From assembly GCF_053078305.1 (NCBI RefSeq), contig NZ_CP166879.1: a stretch of 64,000 nt of DNA, one strand, 5' to 3'. Made by a program: the position numbers and the translations under genes. The notes under the pieces are model-generated. The model was not told the origin of the DNA. It made no database searches and saw only the letters and a list, made by a program, of their open reading frames with translations. This document shows positions 12,727 through 59,579 of this stretch, one piece after another (the first letter of the stretch is position 1; every line of letters starts with the position of its first letter).

Positions 12727-14067
12727 ATGACGACACAATCCAGTCCTGTTATTACTGATATGAAAGTCATTCCGGTCGCCGGGCACGATAGCATGTTGCT
12801 TAATATTGGTGGGGCACATAACGCATATTTCACCCGCAATATTGTGGTACTCACCGATAACGCCGGGCATACCGGCATTGGTGAAGCGCCGGGCGGAGAG
12901 GTGATTTATCAGACGCTTGTCGAAGCTATTCCGATGGTGCTGGGCCAGGAAGTTGCGCGCCTGAATAAAGTGGTTCAGCAGGTGCATAAAGGTAATCAGG
13001 CCGCCGATTTTGATACCTTCGGTAAAGGGGCCTGGACCTTTGAATTGCGCGTTAACGCCGTGGCGGCGCTGGAAGCCGCCTTGCTTGACCTGCTAGGTAA
13101 GGCGCTGAATGTTCCGGTCTGCGAACTGTTAGGGCCAGGCAAGCAACGCGATGCTATCACCGTCCTCGGTTATCTGTTTTATATCGGTGATCGGACTAAA
13201 ACCGATCTTCCTTATCTGGAAAATACGCCGGGCAATCATGAGTGGTATCAGTTGCGACATCAGAAAGCGATGAACAGCGAAGCCGTTGTGCGTCTGGCGG
13301 AAGCCTCACAGGATCGCTATGGCTTTAAAGATTTCAAACTTAAGGGCGGGGTGTTACCTGGCGAGCAAGAAATCGACACTGTTCGTGCATTGAAGAAAAG
13401 CTTCCCGGATGCGCGGATTACCGTTGATCCCAACGGTGCCTGGCTGCTTGATGAAGCCATTTCTTTGTGCAAAGGGCTGAATGATGTTCTTACCTATGCC
13501 GAAGATCCATGCGGCGCAGAACAGGGCTTCTCCGGACGTGAAGTGATGGCGGAGTTTCGGCGGGCGACCGGCTTGCCCGTCGCGACTAATATGATCGCCA
13601 CCAACTGGCGCGAAATGGGCCATGCGGTAATGCTCAATGCGGTGGATATTCCACTTGCCGATCCGCATTTCTGGACGCTTTCCGGTGCAGTCCGAGTGGC
13701 GCAGCTTTGCGACGACTGGGGGCTGACCTGGGGCTGCCATTCTAATAACCATTTCGATATCTCTCTGGCGATGTTTACCCATGTGGGCGCGGCGGCACCG
13801 GGTAATCCTACCGCTATCGATACCCACTGGATTTGGCAGGAGGGCGATTGTCGCCTGACCCAAAATCCGCTGGAGATTAAAAACGGAAAAATTGCCGTTC
13901 CTGATGCGCCCGGTCTGGGCGTGGAACTGGACTGGGAACAGGTACAAAAGGCACATGAGGCCTATAAACGTCTGCCTGGCGGTGCGCGTAACGACGCAGG
14001 CCCGATGCAGTACCTGATCCCCGGCTGGACCTTTGACCGTAAACGTCCCGTTTTCGGCCGTCATTGA
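12727..14067 (+). CDS. gudX: Glucarate dehydratase-related protein (enolase superfamily)
   Basis: 446 aa, paralogous to the following gudD ORF. Confidence 0.85.
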
Positions 14068-14087: not shown

Positions 14088-15428
14088 ATGAGTTCTCAAT
14101 TTACGACGCCTGTTGTTACTGAAATGCAGGTCATCCCGGTGGCGGGCCATGACAGTATGCTGATGAATCTGAGTGGTGCACACGCACCGTTCTTCACGCG
14201 TAATATTGTGATTATCAAAGATAATTCTGGTCACACTGGCGTAGGGGAAATTCCCGGCGGCGAGAAAATCCGTAAAACGCTGGAAGATGCGATTCCGCTG
14301 GTAGTGGGTAAAACGCTGGGTGAATACAAAAACGTTCTGACGCTGGTGCGTAATACTTTTGCCGATCGTGATGCCGGCGGGCGCGGTTTGCAGACATTTG
14401 ATTTGCGTACCACTATTCATGTAGTTACCGGGATAGAAGCGGCAATGCTGGATCTGCTGGGGCAGCATCTGGGGGTTAACGTGGCATCCCTGCTGGGCGA
14501 TGGTCAACAGCGTAGCGAAGTCGAAATGCTCGGTTATCTGTTCTTCGTCGGTAATCGCAAAGCCACACCGCTGCCGTATCAAAGCCAGCCGGATGACTCA
14601 TGCGACTGGTATCGCCTGCGTCATGAAGAAGCGATGACGCCGGATGCGGTGGTGCGCCTGGCGGAAGCGGCGTATGAAAAATATGGCTTCAACGATTTCA
14701 AACTGAAAGGCGGTGTACTGGCCGGGGAAGAAGAGGCCGAGTCTATTGTGGCACTGGCGCAACGCTTCCCGCAGGCGCGTATTACGCTCGATCCTAACGG
14801 TGCCTGGTCGCTGAACGAAGCGATTAAAATTGGTAAATACCTGAAAGGTTCGCTGGCTTATGCAGAAGATCCGTGTGGTGCGGAGCAAGGTTTCTCCGGG
14901 CGTGAAGTGATGGCAGAGTTCCGTCGCGCGACTGGCCTGCCGACTGCAACCAATATGATCGCCACCGACTGGCGGCAGATGGGCCATACGCTCTCGTTAC
15001 AATCCGTTGATATCCCGCTGGCGGATCCGCATTTCTGGACGATGCAAGGTTCGGTACGTGTGGCGCAAATGTGCCATGAATTTGGCCTGACCTGGGGTTC
15101 ACACTCTAACAACCACTTCGATATTTCCCTGGCGATGTTTACCCATGTTGCCGCCGCTGCACCGGGTAAAATTACTGCTATTGATACGCACTGGATTTGG
15201 CAGGAAGGCAATCAGCGCCTGACCAAAGAACCGTTTGAGATCAAAGGCGGGCTGGTACAGGTGCCAGAAAAACCGGGGCTGGGTGTAGAAATCGATATGG
15301 ATCAAGTGATGAAAGCCCATGAGCTGTATCAGAAACACGGGCTTGGCGCGCGTGACGATGCGATGGGAATGCAGTATCTGATTCCTGGCTGGACGTTCGA
15401 TAACAAGCGCCCGTGCATGGTGCGTTAA
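14088..15428 (+). CDS. gudD: Glucarate dehydratase
   Basis: ATG at 14088 preceded by AAAAGGA RBS gives 446 aa; ORF track offers upstream start 14064. Confidence 0.88.
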
Positions 15429-26891: not shown

Positions 26892-27785
26892 TTACCAGCG
26901 ACCGGACGCGCCGCCACCGCCAGAAGAACCGCCCCCGCCGCTAAATCCGCCGCCACTTGAGCCTCCACCGGAAGAGGATGAAGAAGAACTTTTTCTTGAA
27001 GCTCTTTCTTTACTGAGTTTTTTGTATTTGGCGCGTAGCTTTTTATTGACGATAAGCCAAAAAATAACCAGTGGTACGCTCGCAAAAGGCGTTAACATAC
27101 CGCAGGCAACGATTAAATTGGTCCATGGTCCTGGCTCGGCAACATAGAGGAATACCATCCCGTAAATGGCGCCAGTGAGAGTGATCCAGGGTAAATTCGA
27201 CGGATCGGTAAAAACAATAAAATATGAAAGTACCGCCAGCAATATAATTACAGCAAGCGATAATGGAATAGGGGGATTGATACTGTAATAATCCCCCTTG
27301 TCTTCCGATAATTCACCATTCAACAGAAGCGCGCCGATATTTTCGCTTGCCAGTGTTAATCCACCCATCAGGTCATCACTTTTGAAGGCAGGGATCAATA
27401 TATCCCTGATAATCTTCGCCGCTTGCAGGTCGGTAACCACCCCTTCCAGCCCGTAGCCAACCTCAATACGAACAGCATGATCCTCCCAGGCAACCAGAAG
27501 TAAAATACCATCGTTTCTCTGCTTATCTCCCAGTTTCCAGCTATCAAAAACGCGTGTTGCATATTGTTCAATGGAATCGTCTCCGGTGGACGGCACTACT
27601 AATACAGCGACCTGCGCCCGTGTTTTATGTGTAATATCCTGCAGTTGCTGTGTCAGTGATTGTTGTTCAGAAGTGCTTAACGTACCAGTAATATCGGTCA
27701 CCTGTTGGCGCAGCTCCGGCACAGCAATTTGCTGGGCAAGCCCAGGAAGGCACCACAAAGTGAATAGAATAAAGATTAAGCGCAT
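26892..27785 (-). CDS. TPM-domain membrane protein, paralog 1 (YgcG-like)
   Basis: ATG at 27785 (ORF track uses TTG at 27797); signal peptide, TPM-like domain, C-terminal TM segment and Gly/Ser-rich tail ending SGRW. Confidence 0.75.
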   Translation of the reverse strand: MRLIFILFTLWCLPGLAQQIAVPELRQQVTDITGTLSTSEQQSLTQQLQDITHKTRAQVAVLVVPSTGDDSIEQYATRVFDSWKLGDKQRNDGILLLVAWEDHAVRIEVGYGLEGVVTDLQAAKIIRDILIPAFKSDDLMGGLTLASENIGALLLNGELSEDKGDYYSINPPIPLSLAVIILLAVLSYFIVFTDPSNLPWITLTGAIYGMVFLYVAEPGPWTNLIVACGMLTPFASVPLVIFWLIVNKKLRAKYKKLSKERASRKSSSSSSSGGGSSGGGFSGGGGSSGGGGASGRW

Positions 27786-27790
27786 TACGA

Positions 27791-28939
27791 TCACCAACGG
27801 CCGGATGAACCGCCGCCTCCTGAAGAACCGCCACCACCGCGGAAAGAATTTCTCGACGAAGAGCGAGAATGAGCATTACGATTCCCCGTTTTCCTGTTGC
27901 TTTTTTCTCCTGACCCCAGCTTAAGATTGCCAGTAAATTTGGCCACAATGATCAGCAGAACGATGCCAGCAATGGTTATTGGGCCGATAAAATGATCAAT
28001 TAACCCAATAATTGTTGAGATGAATGCAATATCTTTATTACTGGCGAACACCAGGCACCATCCCACAATAATTATCAGCATCACGACAAACAATGAATTT
28101 CGTCCTGATTCACGAACCTGCGGAGTCTTCTTTTGTTTTTTCACTTTAGCGTTTTTATTTTTTGGGGCCAGCATCATAGGAAATACGCGGCACAAATTAA
28201 AAACTACCGCGAGACGCTGCTTGCAGGTTGTTGCTAACAATAAACTAAAACAAACGACCGATACCCGCCGAATGATGACATCGTCCTGAAAGGAGAAAAA
28301 CCAGACCATAGGGGTAATCATCGATATCATCCATATGCCACGCCGTGGGCGGCTGGCAAATCGCCAGAGGACAACGATGGCAACGATCATCAGCAGTGTC
28401 CAGGCAAGACATGGCAGCGAACGTTGCGGATTAGCAAACAGATGATTGGCTAAAGCATCCAAAGGGCTAAGGTTCGCTTTGATATGGGTAAACTGTGCGA
28501 TGCTTTCAATTCCGCCCGTTAATCCAGCAAAGAGATTGTTTTTTTCGAATTCTGGCTGCATATGGTAACGAACAATTTGCGCAGCTTGTTCCGGCGGCAA
28601 CATCTCTTCCAGTCCATGTCCAATCTTCATTGACGCCAGCCCTTCCGGCCATACGACGAGAATTAAGATACCTTCGCCATATCGCTTCTCTCCAACGGGT
28701 TTCCAGTGATATACCCCGTATCTCTGCGAGGCTGCAAGTTTAATGTTTTTGCCCCCTGTGGTCGGCGTAACCAACACGGCCACCTGGAAGTGGTTTTGCT
28801 GCTCGAGAGTCTGTAATTGTTGAGTTAAAGCAGTTTGTTCTTCTGTCGTTAATGTCCCGGTTAAGTCATTCACTGAAGGCAATCGTTCAGCGAATACCTG
28901 AAAACTGCATAGCATCAGAAGTAAGAGAAAAATACGCAT
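27791..28939 (-). CDS. TPM-domain membrane protein, paralog 2, with extended multi-TM region
   Basis: 382 aa; signal peptide, TPM-like domain, about 5 hydrophobic helices, Gly/Ser-rich tail ending SGRW. Confidence 0.72.
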   Translation of the reverse strand: MRIFLLLLMLCSFQVFAERLPSVNDLTGTLTTEEQTALTQQLQTLEQQNHFQVAVLVTPTTGGKNIKLAASQRYGVYHWKPVGEKRYGEGILILVVWPEGLASMKIGHGLEEMLPPEQAAQIVRYHMQPEFEKNNLFAGLTGGIESIAQFTHIKANLSPLDALANHLFANPQRSLPCLAWTLLMIVAIVVLWRFASRPRRGIWMISMITPMVWFFSFQDDVIIRRVSVVCFSLLLATTCKQRLAVVFNLCRVFPMMLAPKNKNAKVKKQKKTPQVRESGRNSLFVVMLIIIVGWCLVFASNKDIAFISTIIGLIDHFIGPITIAGIVLLIIVAKFTGNLKLGSGEKSNRKTGNRNAHSRSSSRNSFRGGGGSSGGGGSSGRW

Positions 28940-28956
28940 ATCAATTCCTTTTGTTA

Positions 28957-29847
28957 CTAGCGCCCGGAAGCGCCACCGCCACCAGATGAACCGCCACCAC
29001 CGCTGAAATTGTCATTGTTGAATGAAGAGGATGACGATGATGAATAGTGGGAGGAAGAATTGCTTCTTGTATGGCGTGATGGCTGGTTGACATCACGCAT
29101 CAAATCCCGAACTTTTTTGCCGAAGGGAGTAACAGCGATGGCGACAGCCAGGAACGGTGTGGCGAAGCAGAGTAATGTTGCGAGTACTCCCCAGCTTCCG
29201 CTGAAGCCTGCTATAGGTAAAACAAAGGCCAGTACAATAGCTGCGAAGCAAATTACTCCCAGCGTTTTGATATATCCTCTGGCAGAAATAAACGTCAGTA
29301 CTATCGCCCAGACTAACAATGCCCACCAACCGCTAAAGGGCAAAGGGTGATCGGTCGGTGTAATCGTTGCTAAATTATTCCCCGTCAGACGACTTTCAAG
29401 ATCGCTGATCCCCTTTTGTAAACCGACAGCAAGGTCGCCTTTTTTAAATGCAGGAATAATATTGTTGCGAATAATTTTCCCGGACTGCGCATCCGTAATA
29501 ATACCTTCCAGTCCGTAACCGATTTCAATACGCACGGTATGATCCTGCCAGGCGACTAACAGTAGAACGCCATTATCGCGGTCTTTATCACCCGGTTTCC
29601 AGCTATCGAATACCCGCGTTGCGTACTGCTCGATGGTTTCATCGCCTGTTGTATCAACCACTAACACGACCAACTGTGCGTGGTTTTTTTGCGTCAGGGC
29701 TTTAATCTGGTTGGTCAGGGTGTTTACTTCGCTGTTTGTTAATGTGCCGGTTAAGTCATTCACATACTTGGGGGATTCAGGTACTGGAATTTGTGTGGCA
29801 AACACAGATGAACAGAAGAAAGCCATAAGGAAGATAAAATTTCGCAT
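28957..29847 (-). CDS. TPM-domain membrane protein, paralog 3 (YgcG-like)
   Basis: ATG at 29847 (MRNFIF...); about 55 percent identical to paralog 1 by eye over the TPM domain; Gly/Ser tail ending SGR. Confidence 0.75.
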   Translation of the reverse strand: MRNFIFLMAFFCSSVFATQIPVPESPKYVNDLTGTLTNSEVNTLTNQIKALTQKNHAQLVVLVVDTTGDETIEQYATRVFDSWKPGDKDRDNGVLLLVAWQDHTVRIEIGYGLEGIITDAQSGKIIRNNIIPAFKKGDLAVGLQKGISDLESRLTGNNLATITPTDHPLPFSGWWALLVWAIVLTFISARGYIKTLGVICFAAIVLAFVLPIAGFSGSWGVLATLLCFATPFLAVAIAVTPFGKKVRDLMRDVNQPSRHTRSNSSSHYSSSSSSSFNNDNFSGGGGSSGGGGASGR

Positions 29848-31645: not shown

Positions 31646-32528
31646 GAGTTCCCCGCGCTAGCGGGGATAAACCGTAATGAGTCAGGGGAATACCGAATAT
31701 TTTATAGAGTTCCCCGCGCTAGCGGGGATAAACCGAAATTTATCGAGATCGGCAGGGGTTACTGACAGAGTTCCCCGCGCTAGCGGGGATAAACCGGCCG
31801 TTAATCCGGACTGCCAGCGAATAACGCTGAGTTCCCCGCGCTAGCGGGGATAAACCGCAACATATTTAAACGATTTAAGCCAGGCATATGAGTTCCCCGC
31901 GCTAGCGGGGATAAACCGGGATTCATCACGCGGTTATCCGGGGGCCGTTAGAGTTCCCCGCGCTAGCGGGGATAAACCGGTGGTTGCGGGGTTATCGGTG
32001 GTAGTCACAATGAGTTCCCCGCGCTAGCGGGGATAAACCGCTCCAGCTCGATATCACACGACGCTATATCAGGAGTTCCCCGCGCTAGCGGGGATAAACC
32101 GGAAACAGCGCCCGCCGGTGCTGCGTTACCGTGGAGTTCCCCGCGCTAGCGGGGATAAACCGCCAACAAACTCATTTGCACTGGATTCGTGGATGAGTTC
32201 CCCGCGCTAGCGGGGATAAACCGACCGGCGCAATTGTTTTTCAGCAGCACCCGGCGAGTTCCCCGCGCTAGCGGGGATAAACCGTATTTTCTTTGTTGCG
32301 GTAGGCAATATCGCCAGAGTTCCCCGCGCTAGCGGGGATAAACCGGTATTTTGTCACGACCAGCACGAGGCCGAATAGAGTTCCCCGCGCCAGCGGGGAT
32401 AAACCGCCCCAACTCATGCCCACATGAAAAACGTTGACGAGTTCCCCGCGCCAGCGGGGATAAACCGCCGCAAAAGGTATTATTTTTATCCGTCAGTACG
32501 AGTTCCCCGCGCCAGCGGGGATAAACCA
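31646..32528 (+). CRISPR. CRISPR array, 15 repeats of 29 bp, 14 spacers of 32 bp (type I-E repeat)
   Basis: Exact 61-bp periodicity; 12 repeats GAGTTCCCCGCGCTAGCGGGGATAAACCG then 3 leader-distal repeats with CCAGCG loop; terminal repeat ends ...AACCA. Confidence 0.97.
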
Positions 32529-32996
32529 CCATATAACCCGTTATCTCTTTCTCAAGTTTTTATATTAGCTGTACTTGTAATAAGCAACATATCCACGTAA
32601 CACCTCATGTTCAAAATAGTTCCCCATGCCAGATAAGTTCACAATTATCGATACAAAAAATCAAATTTAATCAAAGTGTTATTTGTATAATCCTTAAACC
32701 GTTAAGAAATTTTAATATATTATTTTTTTAATATTAATTAATGCCTGTTAATTTTTTCTTTAGAATAACAGTGTATTTTTTAAGCTTGTTATTCATTGAT
32801 TAAGTAATAAATCTGGAAATTTGTCTTTGTTTTGAGGCTAATGAGTGGTTTTACATAACCGCCTCTATACGCTGTTGATGAATAGTTCTTATGAATAAAG
32901 ATATCCTGTTCATACTTTAAGTGAAAATTGATAAAGTGCGATTCGTATTGTCTTTTATTCTAAAGACATCGAGTGTAGTTAATATTCCTTGTAAAA

Positions 32997-33119
32997 ACAG
33001 GGATAAACCGAACTAGTTAAAGTTTTTATTATGTTCCCTGCATCAGCGGGGATAAACCGGACTTGTTATCATTTTTTAAGTTGTCGAACTTATGTTCCCC
33101 GCGCCAGCGGGGATAACCA
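32997..33119 (+). CRISPR. Vestigial CRISPR remnant (degenerate repeats)
   Basis: Partial repeat GGATAAACCG at 33001, ATGTTCCCTGCATCAGCGGGGATAAACCG at 33031-33059, ATGTTCCCCGCGCCAGCGGGGATAACC at 33092-33118; another fragment near 32617-32637. Confidence 0.7.
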
Positions 33120-33165
33120 TTCAGGTATGTTCAGGCCGGGCAGTTTCCCGCCCGGTTTTCCTCAC

Positions 33166-49223: not shown

Positions 49224-49376
49224 ATGCTGACAAAATATGCCCTTGTGGCAATCATCGTACTGTGTTGTACAGTACTGGGATTCACGCTGATGGTAGGCGA
49301 CTCGTTGTGTGAGTTGAGTATCAGAGAACGTGGTATGGAGTTTAAGGCTGTTCTCGCTTACGAATCGAAGAAGTAG
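49224..49376 (+). CDS. hokX: Hok/Gef-family type I toxin (probable hokX)
   Basis: 50-codon ORF, not in the ORF track because under 60 aa; hydrophobic N-terminal TM segment plus conserved Hok C-terminal pattern (LCEL..R...EF.A.LAYESK); followed by a hairpin. Confidence 0.65.
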
Positions 49377-49568: not shown

Positions 49569-52268
49569 ATGCGTAAATATCCTTTAAGTTTACTGAAGGA
49601 TAAAAATATTGTGACTTTCTTTGATTTCTGGGGAAAAACCCGACGCGACGAGAAAGAAGGGGGTGACGACTATCACCTTCTTTGCTGGCATTCGCTGGAT
49701 GTGGCCGCGATGGGCTATTTAATGGTTAAAAGAAATTGCTTCGGGCTGGCTGATTATTTTCGTCAATTAGGGATTTCTGACAAGGAACAGGCGGCTCAAT
49801 TTTTCGCCTGGTTGTTGTGCTGGCACGATATTGGAAAATTTGCCCGCTCATTTCAGCAACTTTACCTGCACCCACAACTCAAGGTTCTGGAAGGCGCAAG
49901 AAAGAATTACGAAAAGATCTCTCATTCAACGCTGGGCTACTGGTTGTGGCATCATTATTTAAGTGAATGCGAAGAATTGCTTCCTGCCTCTTCACTCTCT
50001 ACTCGCAAACTTAAACGTGTAATAGCGATGTGGATGCCCATGACTACCGGGCATCATGGTCGGCCCCCTGACCGTATTGATGAACTGGATAATTTTCTGC
50101 CTGAAGACAAAGCTGCCGCACGAGATTTTCTCCTTGAAATCAAGTCACTGTTTCCGCTCATAGAGATTCCCACATTCTGGGATGATGACGAGGGCGTTGA
50201 ACTTTTAAAACAACTTTCCTGGTATATCTCTGCAACAGTCGTACTCGCAGACTGGACGGGTTCGTCAACGCGATTTTTTCCACGCGTCGCACAGACAATG
50301 AATATTAAAGATTACTGGCAGAAAACTTTAGTTCAGGCTCAAAACGCCTTAACCGTCTTTCCTCCAAAAGCAGAAACCGCACCTTTCACCGGAATTAATA
50401 CGCTGTTTCCTTTTATTGAGCACCCGACACCATTACAGCAAAAGGTACTGGATCTGGATATCAGCCAGCCAGGGCCACAGTTATTTATTCTGGAAGATGT
50501 GACTGGCGCAGGTAAAACAGAAGCGGCGCTTATCCTGGCGCACAGGTTGATGGCTGAGAATAAAGCTCAGGGTTTGTTTTTTGGCCTGCCAACAATGGCA
50601 ACGGCCAATGCCATGTACGATCGGCTGGTCAAAACCTGGCTTGCTTTCTTTTCGCCAGAATCCCGCCCCAGCCTGGTGCTGGCACACAGCGCCCGTACAT
50701 TAATGGAACGCTTTAATGAATCACTCTGGTCCGGTGATTTAGTCGGGTCAGAAGAACCGGATGAACAAGCGTTCAGTCAAGGATGTGCAGCCTGGTTTGC
50801 CGACAGTAACAAGAAGGCTTTACTGGCTGAAATTGGCGTCGGCACGCTGGATCAGGCGATGATGGCAGTGATGCCGTTTAAACATAATAATCTGCGGCTT
50901 CTGGGGTTGAGTAACAAAATCCTGCTGGCTGATGAGATCCACGCCTGTGACGCTTACATGTCGTACATTCTTGAAGGGTTGATTGAGCGACAGGTGCGTG
51001 GCGGAAACAGCGTCATTTTGCTTTCTGCTACGTTATCTCAACAGCAGCGCGACAAACTTGTCGCCGCCTTTGCGCGTGGCACAGAGGGCCAGCAAGAAGC
51101 TCCGTTCCTGGAAAAGGATGATTACCCCTGGCTGACGCATGTCACGAAATCCGATGTGCATTCGCACCGGGTAGCGACGCGCAAAGACGTTGAGCGTAGC
51201 GTGAGCGTGGGTTGGCTTCATAGCGAACAAGAATGTATTGCGCGTATCGAATCAGCGGTAAGTCAGGGGAAATGCATCGCCTGGATCCGGAATTCTGTCG
51301 ATGACGCTATTAAGGTTTATCGTCAGTTACTTGCCCGCGGCGTCATTCCTGCTTCCAGCCTTTCACTTTTTCATAGCCGCTTTGCTTTTAGCGATCGCCA
51401 GCGAATTGAAACGGAAACGCTGGCACGCTTTGGTAAAAATTGTAGTTTAAAAAGATCATCTCAAGTCATTGTTTGTACACAAGTAATTGAGCAAAGTGTG
51501 GATATTGACCTGGACGAAATGATCTCCGACCTGGCCCCCATTGATTTGCTGATCCAGCGAGCGGGGCGATTACAACGGCATATTCGTGATATTAATGGTC
51601 AGTTAAAACGTGATGGAAAAGACGAGCGTTCCCCTCCTGAATTGCTGATTCTGGCCCCCGTCTGGGACGACTCTCCGGGTGACGAATGGTTTGGTAGTGC
51701 GATGCGTAACAGCGCATATGTCTACCCCGATCATGGGCGAATCTGGCTGACGCAGCGAGTATTGCGTGAGCAAGGCGCTATTCAGATGCCACACGCAGCC
51801 CGGCTTCTTATTGAATCCGTCTACGGTGAGGACGTGGTAATGCCGGAAGGATTTGCCCGCAGCGAGCAGGAGCAAGTGGGCAAATATTACTGCGATCGCG
51901 CAATGGCTAAAAAGTTTATGCTGAACTTCAGGCCCGGCTATGCCGCCAATATCAACGATTACCTCCCGGAAAAGCTGTCGACACGTCTGGCTGAAGAGTC
52001 TGTTTCCCTGTGGCTGGCTACCTGTATTGACGGTGTGGTGAAGCCTTATGCCAGCGGTGCTCACGCATGGGAAATGAGCGTTGCCAGAGTGCGTCGAAGC
52101 TGGTGGAAAAAACATCGGGATGAATTTTCTTTACTGGAAGGGGAAGCGTTCAGGCAGTGGTGCATTGAACAACGGCAAGATCCGGAGATGGCAAACGTGA
52201 TTTTAGTCACCGATGACGAAAGCTGCGGGTATTCGGCTACGGAAGGATTGATTGGCAAGGTTGATTGA
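49569..52268 (+). CDS. cas3: Cas3 HD nuclease / helicase (type I-E)
   Basis: 899 aa; HD motifs (HSLDVAA, HDIGK), Walker A (GAGKTEAA), DEAH-like box (LADEIHACD); preceded by AT-rich promoter region. Confidence 0.92.
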   Translation: MRKYPLSLLKDKNIVTFFDFWGKTRRDEKEGGDDYHLLCWHSLDVAAMGYLMVKRNCFGLADYFRQLGISDKEQAAQFFAWLLCWHDIGKFARSFQQLYLHPQLKVLEGARKNYEKISHSTLGYWLWHHYLSECEELLPASSLSTRKLKRVIAMWMPMTTGHHGRPPDRIDELDNFLPEDKAAARDFLLEIKSLFPLIEIPTFWDDDEGVELLKQLSWYISATVVLADWTGSSTRFFPRVAQTMNIKDYWQKTLVQAQNALTVFPPKAETAPFTGINTLFPFIEHPTPLQQKVLDLDISQPGPQLFILEDVTGAGKTEAALILAHRLMAENKAQGLFFGLPTMATANAMYDRLVKTWLAFFSPESRPSLVLAHSARTLMERFNESLWSGDLVGSEEPDEQAFSQGCAAWFADSNKKALLAEIGVGTLDQAMMAVMPFKHNNLRLLGLSNKILLADEIHACDAYMSYILEGLIERQVRGGNSVILLSATLSQQQRDKLVAAFARGTEGQQEAPFLEKDDYPWLTHVTKSDVHSHRVATRKDVERSVSVGWLHSEQECIARIESAVSQGKCIAWIRNSVDDAIKVYRQLLARGVIPASSLSLFHSRFAFSDRQRIETETLARFGKNCSLKRSSQVIVCTQVIEQSVDIDLDEMISDLAPIDLLIQRAGRLQRHIRDINGQLKRDGKDERSPPELLILAPVWDDSPGDEWFGSAMRNSAYVYPDHGRIWLTQRVLREQGAIQMPHAARLLIESVYGEDVVMPEGFARSEQEQVGKYYCDRAMAKKFMLNFRPGYAANINDYLPEKLSTRLAEESVSLWLATCIDGVVKPYASGAHAWEMSVARVRRSWWKKHRDEFSLLEGEAFRQWCIEQRQDPEMANVILVTDDESCGYSATEGLIGKVD

Positions 52269-52271
52269 GAT

Positions 52272-52323
52272 GCCCTGGCGTCGGATGACGCCAGGGCTTA
52301 TCCCCGCTGACGCGGGGAACAGG
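52272..52323. repeat. Perfect 11-bp hairpin followed by inverted orphan CRISPR-repeat-like sequence
   Basis: GCCCTGGCGTC-ggat-GACGCCAGGGC at 52272-52297; minus-strand reading of 52295-52323 is CCTGTTCCCCGCGTCAGCGGGGATAAGCC, 25 of 27 identical to the array repeat. Confidence 0.8.
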
Positions 52324-52718
52324 AACCAATTTTTGTATCTCACTAACTTGGTTAATCCCTAGAATCAGGGAATGGATTTATTTTATCAATGCTATTGTGA
52401 TTATGATAGATGGGTAATTGCTATGAGTTAATGAGAAACAAAAATTTTAAATAATGTCCGGATCCGGAGTTGAGTCACACCGTTACAAGGCGTATTTTCG
52501 TGACCGGTGAAAAGCTGCGGTGAAGAGGACTACGATGTTGTCGATTTTTTTGCTTCAACTTGTGCTAAGTCTGCTTTCAAAACGACAAACTAAGTTCGAT
52601 TTTCGTATCACATTCAACGTCTTTTCTTTTATCCGACTCAGATTAAGTCTCCAACTAAATCTGAAAATATGGTGATGGACAACCGACCAGGGATGGTCTT
52701 TTCTACGAGAGGATGCGT

Positions 52719-54281
52719 ATGAACTCGTTTTCACTTCTGACAACCCCGTGGTTGCCCGTTCGTTTTAAAGACGGAACGACAGGCAAACTGGCGCCAGTCG
52801 ATCTGGCTGATGAAAATGTTGTCGATATCGCTGCGCCACGAGCAGATCTCCAGGGAGCAGCATGGCAGTTTTTACTGGGGCTACTACAAACCAGTTTCGC
52901 GCCCAAAAATCATGGTCGTTGGGATGATATCTGGCAAGACGGACTGGAAGCCGAAAAGCTACGGGAAGCATTGCTGTCTTTAGAACATGCTTTCCAGTTT
53001 GGGCCAGATTCCCCTTCATTTATGCAGGATTTCGAGGCGCTCACGGGAGATAAAGTTCAGGTTGCTTCATTACTGCCTGAGATTCCCGGCGCTCAAACAA
53101 CGAAGTTTAATAAAGACCACTTTATTAAGCGTGGCGTGACTGAACACGTATGCCCTCATTGTTCCGCGTTAGCTCTGTTCTCCCTACAGTTAAATGCACC
53201 GTCAGGCGGCAAAGGCTACCGAACCGGTTTACGCGGCGGTGGGCCGATGACGACTCTGATTGAATTGCAGGAGTATCAGGGCAATCAACAAGCCCCCTTG
53301 TGGCGCAAACTGTGGCTCAACGTGATGCCGCAGGATGAAGCCGACTTACCGCTACCCAAAAAATTTGACGATCTGGTTTTCCCCTGGCTTGGCCCGACGC
53401 GTACCAGCGAACTGGCCGGTGCGGTGGTAACCGATGATCAGGTCAATAAACTCCAGGCGTACTGGGGAATGCCGCGGCGTATTCGTATTGATTTTAATAC
53501 CACGACAGTCGGCAACTGCGATATTTGCGGTGAGCAGGACGACGCGCTTCTGAGCCTGATGACGACCAAAAATTACGGTGCGAATTATGCCATGTGGCAG
53601 CATCCATTAACGCCTTACCGTGTACCACTTAAAGAGGGTGGCGAGTTTTACTCAGTTAAACCACAACCAGGCGGTTTAATTTGGCGCGACTGGTTAGGCC
53701 TTATCGAAACGGGTAAGTCAGAAAACAATACGGAACTTCCCGCTCTGGTGGTGAAACTCTTTAATGCCAGCAGTCTCAAGCAGGCAAAAGTAGGCCTATG
53801 GGGATTTGGCTATGATTTCGACAACATGAAAGCCCGCTGTTGGTACGAACACCGTTTCCCGCTGCTGCTCAATAAAAAAGAAGGCCAGATACCGAAACTG
53901 CGGCTGGCTGCGCAAACGGCTTCACGCATTCTAAGTCTGTTACGGAGTGCATTGAAAGAAGCATGGTTCTCCGATCCAAAAGGTGCACGGGGTGATTTCA
54001 GTTTTGTGGATATCGACTTCTGGAACAAAACTCAGCATCGCTTCCTGAGGTTAGTGCGCCAAATTGAAGAAGGTCAGGATGCGGATGAATTACTCAGCAA
54101 ATGGAATAAGGAGATTTGGTTATTCTCGCGTCAGGATTTTGACGAGCGTGTATTCACCAATCCTTATGAGCCCGTTGATTTAAAACGCGTCATGACCGCG
54201 CGCAAAAAATATTTTACAACATCGGCGGAGAAGCAAAATGCTAAAGCCGCCAGGGAGAAAAAGCAGGAGGCTGCTGAATGA
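52719..54281 (+). CDS. cse1: Cse1/CasA (Cas8e), Cascade large subunit
   Basis: About 520 aa first gene of Cascade operon; ATG 52719 has better RBS spacing than 52713; position between cas3 and cse2. Confidence 0.85.
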   Translation: MNSFSLLTTPWLPVRFKDGTTGKLAPVDLADENVVDIAAPRADLQGAAWQFLLGLLQTSFAPKNHGRWDDIWQDGLEAEKLREALLSLEHAFQFGPDSPSFMQDFEALTGDKVQVASLLPEIPGAQTTKFNKDHFIKRGVTEHVCPHCSALALFSLQLNAPSGGKGYRTGLRGGGPMTTLIELQEYQGNQQAPLWRKLWLNVMPQDEADLPLPKKFDDLVFPWLGPTRTSELAGAVVTDDQVNKLQAYWGMPRRIRIDFNTTTVGNCDICGEQDDALLSLMTTKNYGANYAMWQHPLTPYRVPLKEGGEFYSVKPQPGGLIWRDWLGLIETGKSENNTELPALVVKLFNASSLKQAKVGLWGFGYDFDNMKARCWYEHRFPLLLNKKEGQIPKLRLAAQTASRILSLLRSALKEAWFSDPKGARGDFSFVDIDFWNKTQHRFLRLVRQIEEGQDADELLSKWNKEIWLFSRQDFDERVFTNPYEPVDLKRVMTARKKYFTTSAEKQNAKAAREKKQEAAE

Positions 54282-54814
54282 GTATTGTAAAAGAGGAGCA
54301 CAAAGCCACGCTGCGTAAATGGCACGAAGAGTTGCAGGCTAAACGCGGCAATCGTGCCAGTCTGCGGCGTAGCACAACGGTTAATGATGTTTGCTTGTCA
54401 GAAGGGTTTCGTTCTCTGCTGATGCAGACCCACACTTTGTGGAAAATTGAAGCACAAGAGTGGCGTTTTACCGCACTGGCGCTGGTCGCCGCAGTTAGCG
54501 CCAATGTAAAAGCCATTGATGAACGGCAGCCTTTTGCCGCGCAGCTGGCGGCGGTAATGTCGGAGGGGCGTTTTACTCGCCTGTCGGCAGTAAAAACGCC
54601 GGATGATTTACTGCGTCAGTTACGTCGCGCGGTCAAATTATTAAACGGTTCCGTCAATCTTATCTCTTTGGCAGAAGATATTTTCCGCTGGTGCCAGGAG
54701 AGCGACGACCTGCTCAATCATCACCGCCGCCAGCAGCGGCCAACCGAATTTATCCGTATCCGCTGGGCACTGGAATATTACCAGGCTGGCGACGCCGATA
54801 ACGAACAAAATTAA
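54278..54814 (+). CDS. cse2: Cse2/CasB, Cascade small subunit
   Basis: 178 aa; ATGA overlap with cse1. Confidence 0.85.
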   Translation: MSIVKEEHKATLRKWHEELQAKRGNRASLRRSTTVNDVCLSEGFRSLLMQTHTLWKIEAQEWRFTALALVAAVSANVKAIDERQPFAAQLAAVMSEGRFTRLSAVKTPDDLLRQLRRAVKLLNGSVNLISLAEDIFRWCQESDDLLNHHRRQQRPTEFIRIRWALEYYQAGDADNEQN

Positions 54815-54828
54815 TAAAGGACTATCTC

Positions 54829-55884
54829 ATGACAACATTTATTCAGCTTCATTTGTTAACCGCTTACCCTGCTGCCAACCTTAACCGTGATGATACTGGT
54901 GCGCCAAAAACTGTGGTACTGGGTGGTGCAACGCGTCTGCGCGTTTCCTCACAAAGTCTGAAACGTGCGTGGCGCACTTCTGCACTTTTTGAACAGGCAC
55001 TGGCGGGCCATATTGGTATTCGCAGTGGGCGAATTGCGCGTGAGGCGGCAACTATCCTGATTGAGAAAGGAATCGAAGAGAAAAAAGCCATCGAATGGGC
55101 GGCAAAAATTGCGGATTATCTTGGGAAAGCTAAAAACGACAAAAAACCAAAAGATCCGCTCACTAACGCCGAAACTGAACAATTAGTTCATATCAGCCCG
55201 GCAGAATTTGACGCCGTAAAAGCGCTGGCCCATCAACTGGCAGAAGAAAAGCGCGCGCCAAAAGAGGAAGATCTCGCGTTGTTACGTAAAGACCGTATAG
55301 CGGTAGATATCGCTATGTTTGGTCGTATGCTGGCGAATAAACCTGAGTTTAATGTTGAAGCCGCCTGCCAGGTCGCGCATGCGTTTGGTGTCAGTGAAAC
55401 GATTGTCGAAGATGATTTTTTCACCGCCGTTGATGATTTGCGCCAGGCCTCTGAAGATGCCGGTGCCGGGCATCTCGGAGAAACCGGATTCGGTTCAGCA
55501 CTTTTCTACACCTATATCTGCATTGATAAAGATCTGCTGGTAGAAAACCTCGGCGGTGACGAAGCGTTAGCTAATCAGACCATACGCGCTTTTACGGAAG
55601 CCGCGCTTAAAGTTTCCCCAACCGGTAAACAAAATAGCTTTGCCAGCCGTGCCTACGCCTCCTGGGCGCTGGCGGAAAAAGGCACTGATCAACCGCGTTC
55701 TCTGGCGGCGGCTTTCTATGAACCCATTAATGGTACCCGTCAGTTAGATGTGGCGGTGCAGCGTATTACAACGCTTCGCGAAAACATGAATACGGTCTAC
55801 GAACAGAAGACTGAATGCGCAAGTTTTGACGTGATGAACAAACAGGGAAGCATGAAGGACGTACTGGACTTTATCTGCGCGTAA
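54829..55884 (+). CDS. cas7: Cas7e/CasC, Cascade backbone subunit
   Basis: 351 aa with LNRDD...RVSSQSLKRA N-terminal signature recalled from CasC. Confidence 0.88.
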   Translation: MTTFIQLHLLTAYPAANLNRDDTGAPKTVVLGGATRLRVSSQSLKRAWRTSALFEQALAGHIGIRSGRIAREAATILIEKGIEEKKAIEWAAKIADYLGKAKNDKKPKDPLTNAETEQLVHISPAEFDAVKALAHQLAEEKRAPKEEDLALLRKDRIAVDIAMFGRMLANKPEFNVEAACQVAHAFGVSETIVEDDFFTAVDDLRQASEDAGAGHLGETGFGSALFYTYICIDKDLLVENLGGDEALANQTIRAFTEAALKVSPTGKQNSFASRAYASWALAEKGTDQPRSLAAAFYEPINGTRQLDVAVQRITTLRENMNTVYEQKTECASFDVMNKQGSMKDVLDFICA

Positions 55885-55894
55885 GGGGCGGCTT

Positions 55895-56641
55895 ATGAGC
55901 CAATATCTGATTTTTCAGCTTCATGGGCCAATGGCATCCTGGGGCGTCGATGCCCCCGGCGAAGTGCGTCATACCCATGAACTGCCTTCGCGCTCAGCAT
56001 TGCTGGGTCTGCTGGCTGCCGGGGTAGGGATTCGGCGTGATGATACCGAACGCTTAAACGCGTTTAATCGCCACTATTCACTGGTGGTTTGCGCCAGCCG
56101 TAACCCGCGCTGGGCACGGGATTATCACACGATCCAGATGCCAAAAGAGGTGCGCAAAGCGCGTTATTTCAGCCGTCGCGAAGAGTTGAGCGACTCTGAT
56201 CTTCTGAGCGCGATTATCTCCCGGCGCGACTACTACACCGACGCCTGGTGGATGGTGGCGGTGGCAACAACAGCCGATGCGCCTTACAGCCTCGAACAGT
56301 TGCAGGGCGGTTTACGCCATCCAGTTTTTCCTCTTTATCTGGGGCGAAAAAGTCATCCGCTGGCATTACCACTTGCGCCGTTACTGCTCGAAGGCAACGC
56401 GTCTGATGTTTTACGTAACGCATACCAACAGTATCAGGATCATTTCCACGACCTGAAAGTCTCACTCCCGAAACTTCAGGATGAATGCTGGTGGGAAGGG
56501 GAGCACGACGGCCTGGTCGTGAGCAAAATATTACGCCGCCGGGATGTTCCTTTAAATCGCCAGCAGTGGCTGTTTGGGGAACGCACCGTCAATCAGGGGC
56601 CGTGGCTCAGCAAGGAGGAACCATGTACCTCTCAAGAATAA
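55895..56641 (+). CDS. cas5: Cas5e/CasD
   Basis: 248 aa; N-terminal L.GPM..WG motif typical of Cas5e. Confidence 0.85.
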   Translation: MSQYLIFQLHGPMASWGVDAPGEVRHTHELPSRSALLGLLAAGVGIRRDDTERLNAFNRHYSLVVCASRNPRWARDYHTIQMPKEVRKARYFSRREELSDSDLLSAIISRRDYYTDAWWMVAVATTADAPYSLEQLQGGLRHPVFPLYLGRKSHPLALPLAPLLLEGNASDVLRNAYQQYQDHFHDLKVSLPKLQDECWWEGEHDGLVVSKILRRRDVPLNRQQWLFGERTVNQGPWLSKEEPCTSQE

Positions 56642-57269
56642 CCTTACATACCGCTCAGCTTTTGCCTGCGCAGTTGCTGCATCTGGTGGATCGCGGTGAA
56701 TATGTGATGCATCAGTGGCTGTGGGATCTCTTCCCTGGCGGCAAAGAAAGGCAATTTCTTTATCGTCGGGAGGAACTTCAGGGTGCGTTTCGCTTTTTTG
56801 TCCTCTCGCAGGAACGCCCGGCGGAAAGTGAAACTTTCACTATCGAATGCCGGTCATTTGCTCCGGAGCTGCGTACCGGACAATCCCTTTGTTTCAACCT
56901 GCGGGCGAATCCCACAATTTGTAAAGCGGGCAAGCGCCACGATCTGCTGATGGAGGCGAAACGGCAGGTGAGGGGACAGGCGGAAGGGCGTGATGTCTGG
57001 TTGCATCAACAACAGGCGGCGCTGGACTGGCTGGCAGCGCAGGGGGAGAGAAGCGGTTTTACACTGCTGGATACCTCGGTTGATGCCTACCGACAACAGC
57101 AACTGCGGCGGGAAAACTCCCGGCAACTGATCCAGTTCAGTAGCGTGGATTATACGGGGATGCTTACGGTCACCGATCCCGGGTTATTTCTGCAACGTCT
57201 CAGTCAGGGGTATGGCAAAAGCCGCGCGTTCGGCTGTGGTCTGATGCTGATCAAACCCGGAGCAGAGGT

Positions 57270-57273
<4 letters not shown>
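56623..57273 (+). CDS. cas6e: Cas6e/CasE, crRNA endoribonuclease
   Basis: ATG at 56623 after AGGAGG RBS, 216 aa starting MYLSRI...; overlaps cas5 end by 19 nt; ORF track shows only a longer upstream-extended frame. Confidence 0.85.
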
Positions 57274-58483
<1,210 letters not shown>

Positions 58484-58579
58484 GTTATGTGTTCTTTAAA
58501 AATAAGGAAATGTTTGAATTTAGTTGGTAGATTGTTGATGTGGAATAAATTTGTTTAAAAACAGATATGTATGCTTAGT
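58484..58579 (+). promoter_or_regulatory. CRISPR leader for array 1
   Basis: AT-rich, contains AGTTGGTAGATTGT at 58522-58535, 45 nt upstream of first repeat. Confidence 0.8.
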
Positions 58580-59579
58580 GTGTTCCCCGCGCCAGCGGGG
58601 ATAAACCGGGGGGGCAATAATATGTGCGGCGGATCACCAGGTGTTCCCCGCGCCAGCGGGGATAAACCGTCGGAAAAATGGCTGGCCTCAACGGTGAAAA
58701 CGTGTTCCCCGCGCCAGCGGGGATAAACCGCCAGGGTGAAACTTTTCGCTGACGTAAATAAAGTGTTCCCCGCGCCAGCGGGGATAAACCGACAATCACA
58801 TATACGACGCGAGACGGAGATCGGTGTTCCCCGCGCCAGCGGGGATAAACCGTGATGGGCGAATACAAGCGCTGGCGCAACGAGGTGTTCCCCGCGCCAG
58901 CGGGGATAAACCCGGCATTCTTAACCGGCGCAACAAGGGGGGCGCGTGTTCCCCGCGCCAGCGGGGATAAACCGGTTAACTCCAGGTGGCGCGGCAGTGT
59001 TCAGAAGTGTTCCCCGCGCCAGCGGGGATAAACCGTGCTCTCATTTGTGTCGGCATCACTCGCGTCGGTGTTCCCCGCGCCAGCGGGGATAAACCGTCTG
59101 CCGCGAGCTGGTCTACGCCTACGCCATGGTGTTCCCCGCGCCAGCGGGGATAAACCGACATATGCCACAACCAGGCGAAGAAAAGTGTTCCCCGCGCCAG
59201 CGGGGATAAACCGCCCGTCACCGACGCGCAGTGGCGCTACCGTGAGTGTTCCCCGCGCCAGCGGGGATAAACCGGTCGCTGGGTTATTTTGTGTTGTGGG
59301 GCGATCGTGTTCCCCGCGCCAGCGGGGATAAACCGCTCATATTCGGATTGATCGTGTGTTTCGGTTTGTGTTCCCCGCGCCAGCGGGGATAAACCTGCGT
59401 ATATCTGTTGATGCGCACGGCGTGGCGGGTGTTCCCCGCGCCAGCGGGGATAAACCGAATGATTTAATACCAGACGCAGAGTGCCACACGTGTTCCCCGC
59501 GCCAGCGGGGATAAACCGGGCGCACTGGATGCGATGATGGATATCACTTAGAATTCCCCGCCCCTGCGGTAGAACACCC
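58580..59579 (+). CRISPR. CRISPR array, 17 repeats (GTGTTCCCCGCGCCAGCGGGGATAAACCG), 16 spacers
   Basis: 61-bp periodicity except one 56-bp unit (27-nt spacer at 59158-59184); degenerate terminal repeat GAATTCCCCGCCCCTGCGGTAGAACACCC at 59551-59579. Confidence 0.97.

What the first reader, a model, noticed from the sequence alone, without database searches (positions are those of the whole stretch)
59158..59184. Anomalously short 27-nt spacer in array 1
All other spacers in both arrays are 32 nt (61-bp unit), but the unit starting at 59129 is 56 bp. This indicates a 5-bp internal deletion in the spacer, an aberrant integration, or an assembly error. Such a spacer would give a crRNA with shortened guide.
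Basis: seen in the sequence. Interest (0 to 1): 0.3.

Follow-up and report, generated by a model that had tools for sequence, protein, structure and literature searches.

The report
Inherited 27-nt spacer in E. coli CRISPR1
One spacer in this E. coli type I-E CRISPR array really is 27 instead of 32 bases long, and because four different strains carry it, it is an inherited oddity and not a sequencing error; it is otherwise an ordinary CRISPR locus.

Summary
In the cas-adjacent CRISPR1 array (58580-59579), the 10th spacer from the leader (59158-59184, ACATATGCCACAACCAGGCGAAGAAAA) is 27 nt long. It lies between two perfect 29-nt repeats. All other spacers in both arrays are 32 nt.

This length is a real outlier. 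None of 2082 unique spacers from arrays with this repeat family in other species was 29 nt or shorter.

It is not an assembly error. The window is identical to the E. coli strain 48 draft (JPQG01000003.1). The same 27-nt spacer also occurs in three other independent assemblies whose arrays differ in make-up. One ancestral event was therefore inherited by a clade.

I found no 32-nt version and no protospacer. I searched 5426 complete E. coli genomes, phage and plasmid collections, IMG/VR and JGI metagenomes. The origin therefore stays open: a post-integration deletion (favoured) or integration of a 28-bp rather than a 33-bp fragment.

All eight I-E cas genes are intact. Cas6e should cut out a 56-nt crRNA. 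By analogy with published -3 and -6 engineered spacers, it would load a five-Cas7 Cascade with weakened interference but retained priming.

Interest is low. This is a rare length variant in a well-known system.

The parts
49569..52268 (+). cas3 (899 aa), intact ORF
   Evidence: NCBIfam cas3_core and cas3_HD are above their cut-offs. The exact protein is WP_044189942.1.
52719..54281 (+). cse1/casA (520 aa as called in public records)
   Evidence: TIGR02547 scores 610 bits. The exact 520-aa protein is found on related contigs.
54278..54814 (+). cse2/casB
   Evidence: TIGR02548 scores 102 bits.
54829..55884 (+). cas7/casC
   Evidence: TIGR01869 scores 448 bits.
55895..56641 (+). cas5/casD
   Evidence: TIGR01868 scores 160 bits.
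56623..57273 (+). cas6e/casE (216 aa), the pre-crRNA endoribonuclease
   Evidence: TIGR01907 scores 290 bits. The exact 216-aa protein is in the public collection.
57270..58193 (+). cas1e (307 aa), intact here
   Evidence: TIGR03638 scores 379 bits. The DNA is 100% identical to strains ET350, PS10-3 and ECNB21-M121.
58190..58483 (+). cas2e (97 aa)
   Evidence: TIGR01873 scores 131 bits.
58484..58579 (+). AT-rich leader between cas2 and the first repeat; it sets the direction of transcription and of spacer acquisition
   Evidence: Read directly from the sequence. The same arrangement is annotated in E. coli records.
58580..59579 (+). CRISPR1 array: 16 full repeats plus a degenerate terminal repeat, and 16 spacers
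   Evidence: The homologous site is annotated 'CRISPR' in E. coli genomes.
59129..59157 (+). Perfect repeat upstream of the short spacer; it ends in the canonical G
   Evidence: 0 mismatches.
59158..59184 (+). The 27-nt spacer W10, ACATATGCCACAACCAGGCGAAGAAAA, 10th from the leader
   Evidence: The identical spacer is present in L138/L147, L149, L150 and L153.
59185..59213 (+). Perfect repeat downstream of the short spacer
   Evidence: 0 mismatches.
59150..59205 (+). Predicted mature crRNA of 56 nt: 8-nt 5' handle AUAAACCG, 27-nt guide, 21-nt 3' hairpin handle
   Evidence: Inferred from the established Cas6e cleavage position in the I-E repeat. Processing is reported to be independent of spacer length (PMC5159557). 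No RNA data are available here.
59551..59579 (+). Degenerate terminal repeat, GAATTCCCCGCCCCTGCGGTAGAACACCC
   Evidence: Sequence and the D1 family.

Best explanation
The 27-nt unit is a genuine, vertically inherited spacer of the E. coli type I-E CRISPR1 array. A single event in the common ancestor of a clade made it 5 nt short. That clade includes E. coli strain 48 and several lineages whose Cas3 differs from the window's by 13-15 residues. The most likely event is a small deletion after integration, inside a spacer that was once 32 nt and without touching either repeat. In a largely silent, slowly evolving E. coli array such a deletion would be neutral and would persist. Shown here: the spacer exists, it is exceptional in length, independent assemblies reproduce it, it has perfect repeats on both sides, and a complete cas operon lies upstream. 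Inferred: Cas6e cuts out a 56-nt crRNA with a 27-nt guide. Cascade assembles on it with five rather than six Cas7 subunits. The complex can still recognise a matching target with an AAG PAM, but with weaker binding and R-loop locking. Its activity is expected to fall between the published -3 construct (full interference) and the -6 construct (poor interference, priming retained).
For: Existence and exact coordinates. Rarity: none of 2082 unique spacers of this repeat family is 29 nt or shorter, and 762 E. coli spacers in the literature span 29-35 bp. Not an artefact: the window is 100% identical over 8202 bp to JPQG01000003.1. The same 27-mer between perfect repeats occurs in GCA_030473905.1 (after W7, before W11), GCA_052552105.1 (same context) and GCA_958306875.1 (after W7, before x31). 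Those strains differ from the window by 13-15 Cas3 residues and by a cas1 nonsense mutation. The flanks are free of indels of their own: 1580 bp on the left are 100% identical to three genomes, and 4450 bp on the right are gap-free against four genomes. The cas operon is complete. Function by analogy rests on three papers. In E. coli, -3, -6, -12 and -18 spacers are all processed; the -3 crRNA binds a Cascade with 5 Cas7 and interferes fully; -6 loses phage and transformation protection but still causes plasmid loss and priming (PMC5159557). A -6 spacer loses silencing (PMC5009729). S. thermophilus Cascade needs an R-loop of at least 28 of 33 bp to lock, and its -6 complex does not lock (PMC6859484). 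Deletion is favoured over aberrant acquisition only on prior grounds. The natural length distribution falls off steeply (31 nt x5, 30 nt x2, nothing shorter), as expected from a structural 33-bp ruler, whereas mutational deletions are not limited in length.
Against: No 32-nt parent spacer was found in any relative. Every lineage that keeps this spacer has the 27-nt form, and lineages without it have lost the whole unit (L151: W9 then W11; L139: W9 then W13). No protospacer was found that would show which 5 nt are missing. The spacer contains no obvious 5-nt tandem repeat that would predispose it to slippage. Expression and Cascade loading were not tested. The E. coli I-E system is known to be silenced by H-NS under laboratory conditions (background knowledge), so the crRNA may rarely be made.
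Confidence: 0.5

Rival explanations
1. Aberrant acquisition. Cas1-Cas2 integrated a 28-bp fragment (PAM-derived G plus 27 nt) instead of the canonical 33 bp, so the spacer was short from the day it was acquired.
For: All copies seen in four array contexts are 27 nt, and no longer version exists in any collection searched. The upstream repeat ends in the canonical PAM-derived G and both repeats are perfect, as expected for a normal integration reaction at both junctions. The deficit of 5 nt equals the length of one 3' overhang of the canonical Cas1-Cas2 prespacer (23-bp duplex plus two 5-nt overhangs). That is background knowledge and a numerical coincidence only; it was not tested.
Against: The I-E integrase acts as a structural ruler. 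In 2082 natural spacers of this repeat family, nothing shorter than 30 nt was seen and only 7 were shorter than 32 nt. PMC5159557 describes E. coli Cas1-Cas2 as structurally constrained to select 33-bp fragments.
Confidence: 0.33
2. Chimeric spacer. A single deletion of 61n+5 bp had one end in one spacer and the other end in a more leader-distal spacer. It removed the intervening repeat(s) and left a 27-nt fusion of two unrelated spacers. Such a guide would match no target.
For: It needs one event, like the simple deletion. The related arrays show many unit losses at this position, so the region is deletion-prone. It would also explain why no protospacer is found.
Against: Comparison with 2184 collected spacers found no spacer sharing more than 6 nt of prefix or 5 nt of suffix with the 27-mer. 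The losses seen in relatives all begin and end in repeats and leave intact 61-bp units. The BLAST search of 5426 complete genomes would have detected a parent sharing 13 nt or more plus the repeat edge, and it found nothing.
Confidence: 0.12
3. Sequencing or assembly artefact in the source record.
For: The source is a draft assembly (JPQG01000003.1) and no reads could be inspected.
Against: The same 27-mer is present in three other assemblies from different samples and submitters, with different neighbouring spacers. The window shows no indels of its own in about 6 kb of flanking sequence compared with other E. coli. All cas ORFs are intact.
Confidence: 0.02

Closest known systems
[quoted passage not shown]
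   Same: The locus order is the same: cysH, cas3, cse1, cse2, cas7, cas5, cas6e, cas1, cas2, leader, array, iap, cysDNC. The repeat is the same, the period is 61 bp, and the trailer-end spacers W11 and W13-W16 are shared with many E. coli strains.
   Different: One spacer is 27 nt rather than 32-33 nt. Nothing else differs.
Engineered shortened-spacer crRNAs in E. coli Cascade (Kuznedelov et al. 2016, PMC5159557; Luo et al. 2016, PMC5009729)
   Same: The system, the repeat handles and the kind of change are the same: a guide shortened by a few nucleotides. The natural -5 falls between the tested -3 and -6 constructs.
   Different: Those constructs were truncated at the leader-distal end by design and were assayed against a known target. 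Here the missing 5 nt cannot be located, the target is unknown, and nothing has been measured.
S. thermophilus type I-E Cascade with altered-length crRNAs (Songailiene et al. 2019, PMC6859484)
   Same: It is the same effector architecture. It shows that lengths off the 12-nt Cse2 period assemble poorly and that short R-loops do not lock.
   Different: It is a different organism with a 33-nt wild-type spacer. Only steps of 6 nt were tested.

Membership tests
Type I-E CRISPR-Cas locus | Full I-E gene set: cas3, cse1, cse2, cas7, cas5, cas6e, cas1e, cas2e | tested here: met
   All eight ORFs are intact. Each matches its I-E-specific NCBIfam model above the cut-off; cas3 does so through its core and HD domain models.
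Type I-E CRISPR-Cas locus | 29-nt partly palindromic repeat with a CCCCGC/GCGGGG stem, in direct repeats with a 61-bp period | tested here: met
   There are 16 full repeats, 14 of them identical to the consensus, and 14 of the 15 steps are 61 bp. Rfam reported no family at gathering threshold, so this rests on the sequence and on the CRISPR annotation of homologous E. coli records.
Type I-E CRISPR-Cas locus | AT-rich leader on the cas2 side of the array, with new spacers added at that end | tested here: met
   The leader at 58484-58579 was read directly. The array comparison shows shared old spacers at the iap end and lineage-specific spacers at the leader end.
Type I-E CRISPR-Cas locus | Spacer length of 32 nt (33 bp including the PAM-derived G), set by the Cas1-Cas2 ruler | tested here: not met
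   The feature is met by the 15 other spacers of array 1 but not by the spacer at 59158-59184, which is 27 nt. This concerns one spacer only and does not affect the classification of the locus.
Type I-E CRISPR-Cas locus | Protospacer flanked by an AAG-type PAM whose G becomes the last repeat nucleotide | tested here: inconclusive
   The repeat before the short spacer ends in G, as expected. No protospacer was found, so the PAM could not be read.
Functional crRNA guide of E. coli Cascade | Transcribed, cut by Cas6e and loaded into Cascade | not testable with these tools
   This is inferred only from intact repeats, an intact cas6e and published behaviour of -3 and -6 spacers.

The most novel reading that the evidence does not exclude
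The spacer was integrated as a 28-bp fragment. It would then be a natural record that the type I-E Cas1-Cas2 ruler can fail by exactly one 5-nt overhang. It would also have persisted as a natural short guide that assembles a five-Cas7 Cascade and favours priming over direct interference.
Probability: 0.2. Interest if true: 0.35.

Novelty: already known. Interest (0 to 1): 0.15.

Why it matters
It matters little for biology at large. For CRISPR specialists it is a natural counterpart of the engineered shortened guides. It occurs in strains that still have an intact I-E operon, so those strains could be used to ask whether off-length guides are tolerated, expressed and loaded in vivo. For CRISPR-based typing of E. 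coli, the 56-bp unit is a stable clade marker. Spacer-calling software that assumes 32 nt could mis-parse it.

Tried and rejected
**Parent spacer or protospacer in complete E. coli genomes**
- blastn with word size 11 and E up to 10 against 5426 complete E. coli genomes gave no match.
- Megablast of the array and of the W9-W11 segment found only genomes that share W11 and W13-W16.

**Protospacer in phages and plasmids**
- Searches of 50,697 phage and 72,556 plasmid records gave only matches of 17-29 nt at E of 0.2 or more.
- The best-looking hit was 21 nt with one mismatch in Salmonella IncFII plasmids. It lacks an AAG PAM and diverges after position 21, so I judged it chance.

**IMG/VR viral contigs**
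- Exact 20-mer, exact 19-mer and PAM plus 15-mer scans gave either nothing or 15-16-nt chance matches.
- Three wobble-degenerate 27-mer scans that cover all reading frames gave hits with only 18-21 of 27 identities and no PAM.

**JGI metagenomes**
- A repeat-anchored pattern allowing any spacer length from 20 to 40 nt gave no hits.
- The 5' 20-mer gave one 21-nt hit in an AT-rich contig, with PAM ACA and divergence afterwards. I judged it chance.

**Other attempts**
- A protein search with the spurious 98-aa ORF that spans W9-W12 returned only repeat-driven similarity of 73% or less. No hit contained the spacer-encoded peptide.
- A 13-nt match between W10 and a spacer of an Enterobacteriaceae MAG (L056) led to no phage target and was dropped.
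- An RNA fold of repeat-spacer-repeat pairs the two repeats with each other and says nothing about processing.
- An Rfam scan of the array found no family at gathering score.
- The window itself contains no second copy or near-copy of the spacer, so it is not self-targeting within these 64 kb.

Full report
**What is there**

The window is E. coli chromosome. The iap-cysDNC flank is 99.5% identical, without gaps, to strain D8. The last 8202 bp of the window are 100% identical to JPQG01000003.1, the draft genome of E. coli strain 48, a strain carrying subAB2-3.

Positions 49569-58483 carry a complete type I-E cas operon: cas3, cse1, cse2, cas7, cas5, cas6e, cas1 and cas2. All are intact ORFs that match the I-E NCBIfam models. 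An AT-rich leader follows at 58484-58579. The CRISPR1 array follows at 58580-59579, and iap lies on the opposite strand.

The array has 16 full copies of the repeat GTGTTCCCCGCGCCAGCGGGGATAAACCG and a degenerate terminal repeat.

**Check of the observation**

The repeats at 59129-59157 and 59185-59213 have no mismatch to the consensus and start 56 bp apart. The spacer between them, ACATATGCCACAACCAGGCGAAGAAAA (59158-59184), is 27 nt long.

Every other spacer is 32 nt. That covers the 15 others in array 1, the 14 in array 2 (31646-32528) and the one in the small remnant array (33031-33120).

**How unusual it is**

I used the single genome-contig scan to sample arrays with this repeat family. 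The pattern accepted any spacer of 20-33 nt. I then re-parsed the 120 loci returned.

The 2082 unique spacers had these lengths:

| Length (nt) | Count |
|---|---|
| 30 | 2 |
| 31 | 5 |
| 32 | 1979 |
| 33 | 92 |
| 34 | 1 |
| 38 | 1 |
| 43 | 1 |
| 46 | 1 |

- The 43-nt and 46-nt cases carry partial repeat copies.
- No spacer was 29 nt or shorter, so a 27-nt spacer is rarer than about 1 in 2000.
- A survey of 237 urological E. coli strains reports 762 unique spacers of 29-35 bp (PMC12736100).

**Is it an artefact?**

None of 5426 complete RefSeq E. coli genomes contains this spacer or anything alignable to it. Arrays in the closest complete genomes share only the old trailer-end spacers W11 and W13-W16.

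I reached draft assemblies by exact-protein look-ups. The window's CysN allele occurs on only two contigs, and its Cas3 and Cse1 alleles on a few dozen. I then looked up the Cas3 alleles of the relatives found in this way.

| Assembly (locus) | Array make-up, leader end first |
|---|---|
| Strain 48 / the window (L147) | W1-W9, W10(27 nt), W11-W16 |
| GCA_030473905.1 (L149) | x33, W4-W7, W10(27), W11, W12, x24 ... |
| GCA_052552105.1 (L150) | x33, x35, W2-W7, W10(27), W11, W12 ... |
| GCA_958306875.1 (L153) | x33, x35, W2, W3, W6, W7, W10(27), x31 ... |

- In all four assemblies the 27-mer is identical and lies between perfect repeats.
- The three relatives differ from the window by 13-15 Cas3 residues and by a nonsense mutation in cas1. 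They are different strains, sequenced independently.
- About 6 kb of sequence flanking the window's array shows no indels of its own against other E. coli.
- Assembly error is therefore excluded for practical purposes.
- Spacers are added at the leader end, and W1-W9 lie on the leader side of W10. The short form therefore predates those acquisitions and the split of these lineages.
- Other relatives have lost the whole unit: L151 has W9 followed directly by W11, L139/L146/L152 have W9 followed by W13, and L140/L142 have W5 followed by x31.
- No relative carries a 32-nt form.

**Origin**

Finding the protospacer would settle the origin, but I found none.

- Phage and plasmid BLAST gave only chance-level matches at E of 0.2 or more. 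The 21-nt match in Salmonella IncFII plasmids has no AAG PAM and stops abruptly.
- Six IMG/VR scans gave nothing credible; three of them were wobble-degenerate and covered all reading frames.
- Two JGI metagenome scans gave one 21-nt chance hit.
- A chimeric origin from two known spacers finds no support among 2184 collected spacers.

Three one-event origins therefore remain:

1. A 5-bp deletion inside a spacer that was once 32 nt.
2. Integration of a 28-bp rather than a 33-bp fragment.
3. A deletion of 61n+5 bp that fused two spacers.

I favour the first, on prior grounds only. Natural spacer lengths fall off very steeply below 32 nt, as expected from a structural ruler, whereas mutational deletions have no such limit. 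The evidence does not discriminate strongly between the three. My confidences are about 0.50, 0.33 and 0.12, with about 0.02 for an artefact.

**How it would work (inferred)**

Both repeats and cas6e are intact. Cas6e processing in E. coli does not depend on spacer length (PMC5159557).

The expected product is a 56-nt crRNA (59150-59205): the 8-nt handle AUAAACCG, a 27-nt guide and the 21-nt hairpin handle.

Published work on shortened guides sets the expectation:

- In E. coli, a -3 crRNA binds a Cascade with five Cas7 and gives full interference.
- A -6 crRNA gives no protection against phage or transformation, but it still causes plasmid loss and efficient priming.
- Another study found that a -6 guide lost silencing.
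- S. thermophilus Cascade needs about 28 of 33 bp of R-loop to lock. Complexes whose length is off the 12-nt Cse2 period assemble poorly.

A -5 guide should therefore form a five-Cas7 complex of reduced affinity. It would sit at the borderline for interference and would probably still be competent for priming. None of this was measured, and the target is unknown.

**Comparison and verdict**

The locus is a standard member of the E. coli type I-E system. Only the spacer-length feature fails, and only for this one spacer.

The finding is a real, rare, inherited length variant with no evidence of special function. It is a natural analogue of engineered short guides and a usable clade marker. Interest is low (0.15). 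The underlying kind of system is already known.

Noticed in passing
window 58885-58913 and 59368-59396: Two array-1 repeats end in C and T instead of G. In relatives the variant base stays with the downstream spacer (C with W6, T with W14) even when the upstream spacer differs: W3 instead of W5, and x3 instead of W13, in L153. This fits the known I-E rule that the last repeat base comes in with the spacer from the PAM.
   Followed up: partly
window 31646-32528 (array 2): The 11 leader-proximal repeats of array 2 carry C to T at repeat position 14 (hairpin loop GCCA to GCTA). The 4 oldest repeats keep C, and the last repeat ends in A. This looks like a first-repeat mutation that was copied into every later acquisition.
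   Followed up: no
window 32990-33120: A decayed remnant array lies about 500 bp downstream of array 2. It has a partial repeat end, two degenerate repeats (4 mismatches each) and one 32-nt spacer.
   Followed up: no
window 58060 (cas1); L148-L151 and L153: The sister lineages, including those that carry the same 27-nt spacer, have a single T to G change that truncates Cas1 at codon 264. The window's cas1 is intact. Adaptation is probably dead in those lineages.
   Followed up: partly
L139-L153 (CRISPR1 arrays of relatives): The related arrays form a mosaic of whole-unit losses, such as x30 and x36 singly and blocks like W8-W9 or W10-W12. L150 has one duplication (W14 W14). All rearrangements begin and end in repeats.
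   Followed up: partly
L016 about 1377 (minus strand) and L070 about 8286 (minus strand): In the cross-species survey, two apparent 46-nt and 43-nt spacers end in a partial repeat copy (GTGTTCCCCGCG..). They look like repeats truncated by deletion rather than long spacers.
   Followed up: no
L003 1501-1521 and L012 8328-8348: A Salmonella IncFII plasmid intergenic region and an AT-rich metagenome contig both match spacer positions 1-21, and both stop matching at position 22. Both are preceded by ACA rather than AAG. I judged this to be coincidence.
   Followed up: partly
window 13240-13539 / 14604-14903 and 26894-29008: There is a pair of 300-nt segments that are 69% identical and 1364 bp apart, probably paralogous genes. 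There are also four copies of a GC-rich 53-nt motif (families D3 and D4). Neither is related to the CRISPR finding.
   Followed up: no
window about 49224-49376: A 50-aa hok/gef-family ORF is called between cysH and cas3 in the related assemblies (L139 9656-9808, Pfam PF01848).
   Followed up: no
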